From Phycisphaerae bacterium (GTDB lineage: Bacteria; Planctomycetota; Phycisphaerae; UBA1845), in the NCBI GenBank assembly GCA_963666835.2, contig CAXXGO010000006.1, positions 256,001 through 320,000 of the forward strand: a stretch of 64,000 nucleotides of DNA, written 5' to 3'. This document shows, one piece after another, positions 24,201-27,200 of the stretch. How positions within the stretch are numbered: position 1 is the first letter of the stretch; each line of letters opens with the position of its first letter. A program made the position numbers.

Positions 24201-27200
24201 TAGTCGGCCGGGGCGCACCGCCCATCCGCCCAGCGGACACGGCCGGCAAGAGCGCATCGAGCGACGGGCCTCGCTCGCCGCGCGGGCTTTCAGCAGTTCT
24301 TCTGCAGATCCTGATAGAGCATCAGCGTGTTGCCGTCCGGGTCGAAGAAGGTCGCCAGTTTGACCATACCTTCGATGATGCGCGTGGGGCCGTCGAAACG
24401 GACGTCCTTGGCCTCGAGCTGCGCGCGGGCGTCGTCAATATCCACGACGCCGAAAGTGAGTACAACGCCGCCGGATCCGCCGCCAGCATCGCCACGCGAT
24501 AGCCCCACGTTAACGTTCGCGACTTCGGTGGCCAGCTCGCACCAACCCAGGTCGTCCATGCGGTACAGCATGCTGAAACCCAACACCTCCTGGTACCATT
24601 TGATGGCACCTTCGAAATCCGCGACCTGGATCCCGCAGGTCAACCCGCCGTCGTATTTGAGAGGTGATGCCATGGTGCGCGCCTTTCCCGTTCGAGGTTC
24701 ATTTGAATAGACCAATCGTAGCACGGCCCCGTCATTGCACTCGACTATCGCGTGCGACGCAACCCGGGCTCGCTTGTGGCATGGCGATACCATACGCCCT
24801 GCCCACCCGACCTTGGGGCCGGCGGTGCTCCTCCGCCTCGAGTACTCGGCATTTGCGAAACCGGCGAAGACAATGAGACTGCGACCTGTCGTTGAAGCAG
24901 GTAGGGTCCGCTCCGCGGACCAATTCGCTTGTTGGCGGCAAAGGGCATCGAGGTTCGGATCGGACACCGGTGATTCAACATCATAAGGGAACCACGTTGG
25001 CGACCGCCGGGAGCTCTTCGATCATCGAAGTGCCGCCCTTGGGTTGACGTGCGACGCGATCCCGCGGCTTACGCCGCGGGCTGGACAGAGCTGTCGCCCT
25101 GACGGGCTGGTCCCGCACGCCACGCAGGTGGCACATATACGGCACTGTCGACCACGGGCAAGCTGCGCGCGTGCATGCTGGAAGCGCGGGCTGTGCGGCG
25201 GAATGCACATGAGCTGCGCTCATGCCACTCTCGATGGCAGGTCTCGTGCCTCGACCGTGCCCTACGAGGTCTTCGCGGGACGCGCGCCCGCATGGCGGGT
25301 CTCGCACCTCGAACGTCTACGGGGGGATGGTACGTGGGTGGCATGGGCCAACTTGTTGGCCCGTGGAGCGTGGTGCGGCGCAGGCGTCCACGAGCAAGCT
25401 GGAACAGTGCATCAGCGTAACGCGAGATCGAGTGACGAACCGTACTTCGCTACACAAACCGGCTATGCTTGCCACCCGCCGCGGGTCTCGTTCCTCGACC
25501 GTGCCCTACAGCCGCCGATGCTGCCCTACAAGGAGGCCGTCGTAATCAGCCTCGGTGGCAGGTCTCGTTCCTCGACCGTGCCCTACACCCGCCGATGCCG
25601 CCCTACAAGGAGGCCGCCGTAATCAGCCTCGGTGGCAGGTCTCGTTCCTCGACCGTGCCCTACACCCGCCGATGATGCCCTACAAGGAGGCCGTCGTAAT
25701 CAGCCTCGGTGGCAGGTCTCGTTCCTCGACCGTGCCCTACAGCCGCCGATGCTGCCCTACAAGGAGGCCGTCGTAATCAGCCTCAGTGGCAGGTCTCGTT
25801 CCTCGACCGTGCCCTACAGCCGCCGATGCTGCCCTACAAGGAGGCCGTCGTAATCAGCCTCGGTGGCAGGTCTCGTTCCTCGACCGTGCCCTACACCCGC
25901 CGATGCTGCCCTACAAGGAGGCCGTCGTAATCAGCCTCGGTGGCAGGTCTCGTTCCTCGACCGTGCCCTACACCCGCCGATGCCGCCCTACAAGGAGGCC
26001 GTCGTAATCAGCCTCGATGGCAGGTCTCGTTCCTCGACCGTGCCCTACAGGGGTGCCAACCGGGTGGGTCAACTTGTTGAGCCGTGGAGCAAGTACGGTC
26101 CACGGAGTGGGCCCTGCACGCTGACGTACAATGGTGCGAGACATCTCATGCCGCCCGGTTGCGAGTGAATATCCGGTGCTTTCTCGCGGGGGACACCGAA
26201 CGAACATAAGCGGCGGGCAAGCGTGGAGGGACAGAGCAGTGTCACAATGGCGTGACCCCGTTGGGGTAGACTTCTCATCTGAGCGTGGACCCAGGGTAGC
26301 CGCTGCGCGGCAACCCTGGGCTTCAGGGCGAAACGCCTTCGGCGTAGTTCCACACGGCGAGGTGTTTATGTTTGGCGACGCGGGAACCTTCGGAAGAGAG
26401 ACGCCCACGTCACCTGCTGAGCCACCGTACGATTAGCAAACCGCCGGCACACCGCTCGTGGCAGTGCCCCGTTTGCAATACGTAGCTGTGGCCGCTTGCG
26501 ACGTCAAGAAGGTGTTTCTGGCTCGTCCGTTTTCGGCGGGGGATGTAAGAACCCGTCAGATTCGGCGAGGGGTAAGGGCGGGAGCGGGCATTACTATGGT
26601 AGAAGATCATCGATGAGGAGTATTCACGTGGAAATCGCCGGGGCGGCCGCCGGCCTGCGACAAACCGCATCGATCGAACGCACCTGTAACCGGGACGACC
26701 GGCTGCGGGAGGTGTTCGACCGGGTCGGGGAGGGGCTGTACCGCTTCATCCTGATGCGTGTGGGTGGAGATCGGCACACGGCTGATGATCTTCTGCAGCA
26801 GACGTGCTATGAGGCGGCACGTCATCGTCGACCGCCGACCGATAACGGCGAGTGTGCGGCTTGGATGTGGGGGATCGCGCGTAACCTGCTCCGCCGGCAC
26901 TGGCGTGATCAGAAGCGGCAGGCGGGGTTGATTCCGTTGGACAGTGCGGCGGCCCAACTGGCCGACTGCCTGGAGGCGCGTCCGCTACCGCAAGACGCTC
27001 TGATCCGGGAGGAGATGGCCGACGCCTTGTTGTTAGCTGTCACAGAGCTGGCAGCAGAGGATCAACGCCTTGTGTTTGGTTATTACTTCGACGGGCGCCG
27101 CCAGGCGGAGATCGCCCGCGACGAGGGTATTACGGAGAAGAGCGTCGAGACCAGATTGGCTCGGGCGCGGCAGCGGCTGCGGAACACTCTTCGCAGCATG

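What a model noticed while it worked through the whole genome (the two positions that open the first line are those of the whole stretch)
25484..26049. Strain-specific 30-nt hairpin repeat in about 700 copies, oriented with the replication strand
A 30-nt sequence [sequence left out] (an imperfect hairpin with only its loop base free to vary) occurs about 700 times, mostly between genes, singly or in head-to-tail arrays with fixed spacers (28 nt most often), and none was found in 25 other genomes of the order; its orientation is 2:1 biased overall and about 6:1 where GC skew is clearly positive. I read it as a young REP/BIME-like element copied through a single-stranded, replication-coupled route, probably by one of the Y1 (HUH) transposase homologs, none of which it flanks. 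New would be a REP-type system in Planctomycetota with a measurable strand rule, and mosaic repeats that other mobile elements of this genome use as landing sites [...]
Evidence so far: Regex with <=5 mismatches: 702 copies (465 +, 237 -), 29 of 30 positions >=93% conserved, position 13 free (G 256/T 245/A 195); 553 of 702 outside called genes. search_genomes pattern <=3 mismatches: 673 here (452/221), 0 in each of 25 other order genomes incl. two of the same family; reversed-pattern control 0. Neighbours <400 nt apart: same orientation 342 v. opposite 69; gap of 28 nt 83 times; TRF arrays with periods 58, 77, 112, 115, 175, 191 nt, e.g. C6 281484-282049 (7.4 x 77 nt). Per 100-kb bins: C6 2.0-2.6 Mb (skew +0.05 to +0.11) 59 + v. 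9 -; C1 0.6-2.1 Mb 80 + v. 18 -; bins with skew near 0 are mixed. Orientation is not set by transcription: between convergent genes 163 + v. 63 -, [...]
(Added by a program. Inside this text positions count along the whole contig: contig position 256,001 is position 1 of the stretch shown here. "Call 12" and the like, gene names such as g00115 and contig names such as C1 are that model's own, and its searches are not shown. The text may have been shortened before it was handed on; [...] marks where a part breaks off. The agent that wrote the report below was given it as the finding of a first reader that could run no searches.)

Follow-up and report, generated by a model that had tools for sequence, protein, structure and literature searches.

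The report
REP repeats with fork-polarised tandem arrays
This is a new member of the well-known REP family of bacterial hairpin repeats, found with its own transposase gene; the unusual part is that only its long head-to-tail arrays, not its single copies, face one way relative to DNA replication.

Summary
Read on the other strand it is a GTAG-footed REP hairpin that forms inverted doublets (REPINs) and head-to-tail arrays. A cognate transposase is linked after all: an intact RAYT/TnpA-REP gene (C6:1,295,422-1,295,967, about 44% identical to E. coli RayT) is flanked by 16 copies. A 67%-identical RAYT in another planctomycete MAG is flanked by the same REP. So it is not strain-specific, and GTAG REPs in planctomycetes are published and common in this order. 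The strand rule holds only in part. Runs of 1-2 copies are unbiased (222:227) and REPIN doublets too (22:22). Runs of 3 or more keep the GTAG strand off the lagging-strand template (18:65; 8:41 by spacer family), whatever the neighbouring genes do. That points to fork-coupled shrinkage or growth of arrays after insertion, not strand-biased insertion. No IS splits this REP. The scan had already filed this repeat as a GTAG REP on other DNA of this genome (e1-4833940). Verdict: a known kind of system with one testable, apparently unquantified feature.

The parts
25480..26048 (-). Head-to-tail array of 8 GTAG-REP copies (30 nt; the 25480 copy has a damaged 3' stem arm) with 7 near-identical 47-nt spacers, period 77 nt, in the divergent gap between a glyoxalase gene and an ECF sigma gene. 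The cognate RAYT gene lies outside the window, at contig C6:1,295,422-1,295,967 (+; locus L030; 181 aa; 11 copies upstream, 5 downstream)
   Evidence: RAYT:
25557..25586 (-). One typical copy: GTAG foot, GGCA/TGCC basal stem, bulged Y, GGTC/GACC stem, 9-nt top with one free base
   Evidence: -5.9 kcal/mol, z -1.85; complement -5.1
25517..25529 (-). Truncated second REP head (GTAG foot plus 5' stem arm only), repeated in each 47-nt spacer
25236..25265 (-). Ninth copy, same orientation, 244 nt from the array
28487..29526 (.). Bipolar locus: one copy with GTAG on + (28487-28516), then four with GTAG on - at a 191-nt period (28924-29526); GTAG feet point outward
48868..48954 (.). Canonical REPIN: 30-nt REP, 28-nt spacer, inverted 29-nt REP; folds into one long hairpin
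   Evidence: z about -7 on both strands
3336..3365 (+). Single decayed copy (3 mismatches)
10282..10311 (+). Single copy
12721..12750 (-). Single copy followed by a spacer remnant
41745..42281 (+). Two decayed copies (41745-41774, 42252-42281)
48299..48735 (.). Copies at 48299-48328 (+, 30 nt) and 48707-48735 (-, 29 nt)

Best explanation
A GTAG-type REP family of a planctomycete, spread as an inverted doublet (REP, 28-nt spacer, iREP) by its cognate E. coli-like (group 2) RAYT at C6:1.295 Mb. Shown: anatomy, doublets, REPtron, the same REP beside a related RAYT elsewhere. Inferred from E. coli biochemistry: the enzyme binds only the single-stranded GTAG hairpin and cuts at C|T. After insertion, local duplications make head-to-tail runs, usually extending outward from a central doublet. 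Shown: these runs, and only these, are polarised about 3.6:1 with the GTAG strand off the lagging-strand template. Inferred mechanism: a run carries all its recognisable hairpins on one strand. When that strand is the single-stranded lagging template, TnpA-REP can cut beside two hairpins and rejoin, removing units as IS608 excises, so such runs shrink. In the other orientation they persist, or grow on the nascent lagging strand. Doublets carry one GTAG hairpin per strand and so show no bias. About 0.92 for the REP/RAYT identity, 0.85 that the array polarity is real and replication-linked, 0.5 that RAYT is its cause.
For: RAYT scores 173.6 bits against NF047646 (cut-off 80). Its only PDB hit is E. 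coli TnpA-REP 4ER8, E 2.6e-38, with the HUH, WQ, E/H, R, Y and N residues aligned. It is flanked by 16 copies. The L040 RAYT (67%) has the same 29-nt REP on both sides in the same geometry. The basal stem covaries, GGCA/TGCC v. GGTG/CACC, in G417 (22 matches) and G633. 71 inverted doublets have 25-31-nt spacers. Neighbour transitions: 116 with feet outward v. 37 inward. Polarity on C1, C3, C6 (299 of 313 loci; C5 and C7 left out as unplaced): runs of 1, 148:135; runs of 2, 37:46; runs >=3, 18:65 (Fisher 7e-7); thinned to 20 kb, 12:41. Homogeneous arrays 11:47; one vote per spacer family 8:41 with 1 tie of 50; 0 of 20,000 locus flips reach the copy excess. The bias has the same sign in all four gene contexts (6:11, 0:11, 10:35, 4:9). 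The leading strand is marked independently by 4-fold-site skew, rplB on + in positive skew, and a group II intron on + in 11 of 11 copies on C1 and C6. Canonical folding energy does not differ between the two strands of 83 arrays (p 0.66), so the asymmetry needs something that tells REP from iREP, as TnpA-REP does (PMC8266576). CT at -3/-2 before GTAG in 19% of 107 singlets v. 5.1% genome-wide.
Against: No direct evidence of RAYT activity or expression. My test for a shared C|T junction between outer and inner flanks of runs was negative (5 v. 2.7 shuffled, p 0.13, n 153). 18 of 83 long runs break the rule, 6 of them at C6 1.0-1.28 Mb where skew is positive. Within bipolar loci the arm asymmetry is only 28:15 (p 0.066, 30 ties). 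In the origin-proximal zone run orientation does not significantly follow local skew (p 0.09-0.43). The genome is in 7 contigs with no end overlaps found, so origin and terminus are inferred. One genome only: no other genome examined had enough head-to-tail arrays for a replicate. Loss on one strand and gain on the other cannot be separated from a single sequence.
Confidence: 0.55

Rival explanations
1. Same REP/RAYT family, but the polarity comes from host replication slippage alone. The GTAG strand folds better through non-canonical G.A pairs (tandem GA/GA and a GNA triloop around the free base), so arrays contract when it is the lagging template and expand when it is the nascent lagging strand, as CTG repeats do.
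For: The sign matches the CTG rule (PMC3310812 passages). The only free base in the top is the N of G-N-A. Arrays are mostly identical spacers between direct REP copies (58 of 83 homogeneous). The C|T junction test was negative.
Against: No canonical energy difference between strands. The triloop here is closed by G:C, about 3 kcal/mol weaker than C:G (PMC3201870 abstract). The sheared-pair model is my inference from recalled DNA structure and was not computed.
Confidence: 0.27
2. One reading: copies are inserted with a strand preference through a single-stranded, fork-coupled intermediate.
For: Overall excess 308:522; slight singlet trend 53:70 when normalised to local skew (p 0.15); IS200/IS605 precedent (PMC3971601).
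Against: Copies in runs of 1-2 are 222:227. The asymmetric REPIN spacer is oriented 22:22 in skewed regions. Singlets of other REP families here are unbiased (19:18, 16:16, 12:13, 13:11). The sign is opposite to lagging-template insertion of the active strand.
Confidence: 0.06
3. Selection rather than mutation: arrays with many GTAG hairpins on the lagging template stall forks or are cut (by TnpA or host hairpin nucleases) and are purged, or the arrays are polar protein-binding sites kept by the host.
For: Bias rises with run length; copy density falls from about 100 loci/Mb near dnaA to 19 on the terminus contig.
Against: No fitness data; spacers are locus-specific; 18 contrary arrays persist, up to 11 copies long; no host protein identified.
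Confidence: 0.09
4. The repeat is mainly a transcription terminator or RNA-stabilising element and its orientation follows genes.
For: 142 of 313 loci lie between convergent genes v. 475 of 3074 gaps.
Against: The array bias has the same sign in all gene contexts. A T-rich tail follows only 25 (GTAG strand) and 7 (other strand) of 865 copies. The focal array lies in a divergent gap. Convergent enrichment is typical of REPs generally (PMC3733652).
Confidence: 0.03

Closest known systems
E. coli REP/BIME with TnpA-REP (RayT, group 2 / subclass 2.2; PMC3333891, PMC8266576, PMC6006769)
   Same: 5' GTAG foot, long imperfect hairpin with an unpaired zone, hundreds of extragenic copies, two REP subtypes, inverted doublets, a single-copy HUH/Y1 gene in a REPtron; protein about 44% identical with catalytic and guide-binding residues kept.
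   Different: Different REP sequence. [quoted passage not shown] E. coli tandem BIMEs repeat the whole doublet and are strand-symmetric; here single REPs plus spacer are repeated and are polarised.
P. fluorescens SBW25 REPINs and GI-GIII tandem REP arrays (PMC3116915)
   Same: Doublets as the likely mobile unit, decayed singlets, and tandem REP arrays in opposite orientation on opposite sides of the chromosome (5 forward near 2 Mb, 6 reverse near 4 Mb).
   Different: There it is a passing remark on 11 similar arrays with no test and no strand assignment that I could read; here 83 runs, with 50 spacer families among the 58 homogeneous ones, tested against singlets and doublets.
GTAG repeat families of the PVC superphylum (R. 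baltica, O. terrae; PMC3733652)
   Same: GTAG-tagged hairpins, several families coexisting in one genome, convergent-gap enrichment.
   Different: I could not see Figure 1 (consensus sequences), so I cannot say whether this family equals one of GTAG-1 to GTAG-24.
IS200/IS605 (IS608) lagging-strand transposition (PMC3971601, PMC6006769)
   Same: Y1/HUH chemistry on single-stranded DNA; replication-linked orientation.
   Different: No bias in single insertions, and the active strand is depleted, not enriched, on the lagging template.

Membership tests
GTAG-type REP / REPIN-BIME | 20-50-nt imperfect hairpin with a GTAG tetranucleotide at its 5' foot | tested here: met
   stem covariation in G417 and G633
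GTAG-type REP / REPIN-BIME | Hundreds of copies, extragenic, enriched downstream of genes | tested here: met
   865 copies; 9 of 710 copies wholly inside genes of my own hexamer gene calls; 142 of 313 loci convergent
GTAG-type REP / REPIN-BIME | Inverted doublets with a conserved-length spacer | tested here: met
   71 doublets with 25-31-nt spacers, 55 of exactly 28 nt; fold z about -7
GTAG-type REP / REPIN-BIME | Cognate tnpA-REP gene flanked by the same REP (REPtron) | tested here: met
   second REPtron with the same REP in L040
GTAG-type REP / REPIN-BIME | Single-strand cleavage at C|T directed by REP but not iREP | not testable with these tools
   indirect only: CT at -3/-2 in 19% of 107 singlets v. 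5.1%; junction test negative
GTAG-type REP / REPIN-BIME | Identity with one of the named families GTAG-1 to GTAG-24 | not testable with these tools
   Figure 1 of PMC3733652 is not held; supplements not opened
TnpA-REP group 2 (subclass 2.2) | DHLH, W[EQ], YIHxNP motifs and E. coli guide-binding residues W94, Q95, E100, H101, R104 | tested here: met
   PDHLH, WQ (W112, Q113), E118, H119, R122, Y133, N137 (against Table 1 and section 12 of PMC6006769); NF047646 173.6 over cut-off 80
TnpA-REP group 2 (subclass 2.2) | Cognate REP is long with a bulge or mismatch zone | tested here: met
   bulged Y and unpaired 9-nt top
TnpA-REP group 2 (subclass 2.2) | Phylogenetic placement inside subclass 2.2 | not tested
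   no tree built
IS200/IS605-like lagging-strand insertion | Independent insertions oriented with the fork, active strand on the lagging template | tested here: not met
   runs of 1 148:135, doublet spacers 22:22; long runs biased the other way
Intrinsic terminator | Hairpin followed by a T run, oriented with transcription | tested here: not met
   25 and 7 of 865 copies have >=5 T in the next 8 nt; orientation independent of genes
CRISPR array | Constant repeats separated by unique spacers | tested here: not met
   the 7 spacers of the focal array are near-identical

The most novel reading that the evidence does not exclude
The arrays are an in-genome footprint of a domesticated HUH transposase working at the replication fork: TnpA-REP removes REP units when their GTAG hairpins lie on the lagging template (or adds them on the nascent lagging strand), which gives a general, sign-predictable strand rule for REP array length. 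It would link REP/BIME amplification to fork asymmetry in vivo, where only models exist.
Probability: 0.45. Interest if true: 0.65.

Novelty: new member of a known kind. Interest (0 to 1): 0.42.

Why it matters
How REPs and BIMEs spread and amplify in living cells is still open; PMC3333891 proposes a two-step model (mobility, then local amplification) and only suggests that the lagging template may be involved. This genome separates the two steps: the mobile units are unbiased and the amplified runs are polarised. That yields a cheap directional test with a defined enzyme, substrate and predicted sign. The family itself is a catalogue entry.

Tried and rejected
Pfam Y1_Tnp search of the genome: 9 hits, none with this REP within 2.7 kb. 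It misses the real RAYT, which has no Pfam hit; NF047646 finds it.

Rolling-circle junction idea (outer and inner flanks share a C|T start): not supported, 5 v. 2.7, p 0.13, although the 58-nt head-to-tail unit often has CT-Y before GTAG while doublets do not.

Strand difference in canonical folding energy: none.

IS or intron insertion into this REP: no paired halves; of 8 multi-copy element entries listed, none shows both halves of this REP at its ends.

Replicate of the array rule in other genomes: G682, G304, G683 and G417 and G134, G099, G071, G048 have 0-60 copies of their own REPs, mostly doublets or singles, so no test was possible. Other REP families of this genome rarely form arrays away from this one.

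Contig-end joins to place origin and terminus: none found. Rfam on 24000-30500: only two sub-threshold Acido-Lenti-1 matches in other repeats.

Reads: 7 runs listed, no RNA holder listed. 4 of the 7 were laid on 36000-55000: contigs break at the copies, depth spikes there, a second strain with a few SNPs carries them, and no clean empty-site allele was seen. Array copy-number variation in reads was not examined.

Literature searches for a quantified REP orientation rule returned only the SBW25 remark; the library lacks most subscription papers.

Full report
Observation. The array at 25484-26049 is real (TRF 7.4 x 77 nt, 97% matches). Scanning the laid genome (6.02 Mb, 7 contigs) with one window copy gives 710 copies at <=5 mismatches, 469 on + and 241 on -, and none for reversed or complemented controls at <=6 mismatches. 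Two positions vary, 13 and 22, not one. A peak at 7 mismatches turned out to be a 29-nt form lacking position 22; with it the family has 865 copies in 313 loci (500-nt linkage). Short-read contigs of 4 of 7 listed runs break at the copies and pile up on them, including a slightly different strain, so the repeat is not an assembly artefact.

What it is. On the minus strand the unit reads GTAG, GGCA, bulged Y, GGTC, a 9-nt top, GACC, TGCC: a REP hairpin with the GTAG guide at its 5' foot. 71 inverted doublets have a 25-31-nt spacer with feet outward, and one in the window folds with z about -7. Loci tend to be bipolar, with feet pointing outward (116 v. 37 transitions), but most neighbours are direct (399 of 552). 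With my own hexamer gene caller (4381 genes, not a validated program) 9 of 710 copies lie wholly in genes, and 142 of 313 loci are in convergent gaps against 475 of 3074 gaps. Singlets are more decayed than array copies (0.81 v. 0.43 mismatches) and often keep a spacer remnant.

The transposase. Pfam Y1_Tnp gives 9 hits, none near the repeat. NCBIfam NF047646 finds two strong genes that Pfam misses. The one at C6:1,295,422-1,295,967 (outside the window) has 11 copies upstream and 5 downstream. It matches E. coli TnpA-REP (4ER8, E 2.6e-38) with HUH, WQ, E/H/R, Tyr and Asn aligned and is about 44% identical to RayT. Its paralogue on C1 (62%) has a different, short GTAG REP. The closest outside relative (L040, 67%) carries the same 29-nt REP on both sides (4 copies in that genome).

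Distribution. 0 of 300 class genomes match the 30-nt pattern, but none was of the same genus and the pattern cannot see the 29-nt form. The exact 30-mer occurs in 6 metagenome contigs; 3 of them align to this genome's genes at only 66-74%, the other 3 only through the repeat. A looser pattern hits 2 of 400 phylum genomes (22 and 1 matches), where the basal stem is compensated to GGTG/CACC; the upper part was fixed by the pattern, so its invariance is no evidence. RAYT relatives occur in 22 of 60 order genomes, 16 of 18 fetched loci have their own GTAG REP beside the gene, and a generic short-REP pattern hits 90 of 120 order genomes, about 34 of them 20 or more times by my count, against 0-3 per genome for the control. 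REP systems are ordinary in this order.

The strand rule. Skew at 4-fold sites is positive over most of C1 and of C6 beyond 0.8 Mb, near zero on C6 0-0.8 Mb, and switches sign on C3 near 0.34 Mb. dnaA copies are at C6:229 kb (+) and C3:138 kb (-), 16S at C6:453 kb (+), rplB at C1:681 kb (+). A group II intron lies on + in 11 of 11 copies on C1 and C6, with the twelfth on unplaced C7; that such introns prefer the lagging template is recalled, not checked. I therefore took + as leading on C1, C6 and C3 below 340 kb, and left out C5 and C7 (14 of 313 loci). Counting runs of same-orientation copies as GTAG on lagging template: on leading template gives 148:135 for runs of 1, 37:46 for 2, and 18:65 for 3 or more (Fisher 7e-7; thinned 12:41). 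Copies in runs of 1-2 are 222:227, so the whole excess (308:522) comes from long runs. Spacers of the 58 homogeneous arrays are mostly locus-specific (50 families, 46 seen once; vote 8:41), and the sign holds in all four gene contexts. The asymmetric REPIN spacer is unbiased in skewed regions (22:22; 17:8 in weakly skewed ones), as are singlets of other REP families. Normalising to local skew instead gives the same picture (singlets 53:70, multi-copy loci 43:108). Against: 18 contrary runs, 6 at C6 1.0-1.28 Mb; arm asymmetry within bipolar loci only 28:15; a weak link to local skew near the origin.

Mechanism. E. coli TnpA-REP recognises single-stranded REP but not iREP and cuts at C|T on either side (PMC8266576), and excision of circles and local amplification have been proposed (PMC3333891). 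A head-to-tail run has all recognisable hairpins on one strand, so fork-coupled excision from the lagging template would shorten runs in one orientation only and leave doublets neutral, which is the pattern seen. This step is inferred. Canonical folding shows no strand difference, which argues against plain slippage, but non-canonical G.A pairs around the free base could supply one, and the sign equals the CTG-repeat rule (PMC3310812), so slippage remains the main rival. My C|T junction test was negative.

Landing sites. The intron inserts beside a different palindrome and an IS4-like element (label recalled from its ends and ORF, not searched) in another REP family; no split copy pairs of this REP were found. 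The elements share mosaic intergenic gaps.

Papers seen. PMC3733652: abstract, section 5, passages; figure and supplements not seen. PMC6006769: sections 12 and 17, passages. PMC8266576: abstract, introduction, passages. PMC3333891, PMC3116915, PMC3971601, PMC3337134, PMC3310812: passages. PMC3201870: abstract. Searches found no quantified orientation rule for REP arrays, only the SBW25 remark; unseen supplements and subscription papers may hold more.

Verdict. A new member of the REP/RAYT kind with an unusually high share of head-to-tail arrays. Interest 0.42.

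Noticed in passing
G000:C1:1,403,440-1,403,988 (L029): Second RAYT, 62% identical to the first, flanked by its own short GTAG REP family (about 63 copies): two E. coli-like REPtrons in one genome.
   Followed up: partly
window 63946-64000 and 11 other sites (e.g. L132): Group II intron in 12 near-identical copies, 11 of 11 on + on C1 and C6, inserted beside a long palindromic repeat unrelated to this REP.
   Followed up: partly
window 24778-26350: The gap around the array is a mosaic of several other hairpin repeats (GTGG-footed hairpin at 25338-25365, a GTAG hairpin near 24911, Acido-Lenti-1-like repeat at 25061-25092 below threshold); the genome holds ten or more such families.
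   Followed up: partly
whole genome: REP density is about 100 loci/Mb near dnaA (C6 0-1 Mb, C1 0-0.4 Mb) and 19/Mb on the terminus contig C3; GC skew is almost flat in the same origin-proximal megabase, unexplained.
   Followed up: partly
28-nt REPIN spacer (e.g. window 48898-48925): The spacer resembles a degenerate copy of the REP itself by eye; not tested.
   Followed up: no
G000:C6:2,222,104-2,222,409 (L007, L035): A Y1/RAYT-like stretch scores inside a long ORF that looks like a type II restriction-modification methylase (label recalled); not examined further.
   Followed up: no
G000:C1:1,689,690-1,690,151 (L001): IS200-like Y1 gene flanked by another GTAG hairpin family of about 54 copies.
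   Followed up: partly
whole genome: Three 32-36-nt repeats in 26-27 copies look like CRISPR repeats; not examined.
   Followed up: no
G000:C1:1,284,684, 1,493,460-1,496,277: Short variants with the same basal stem but a deleted top; a similar short REP flanks the RAYT of L119.
   Followed up: no
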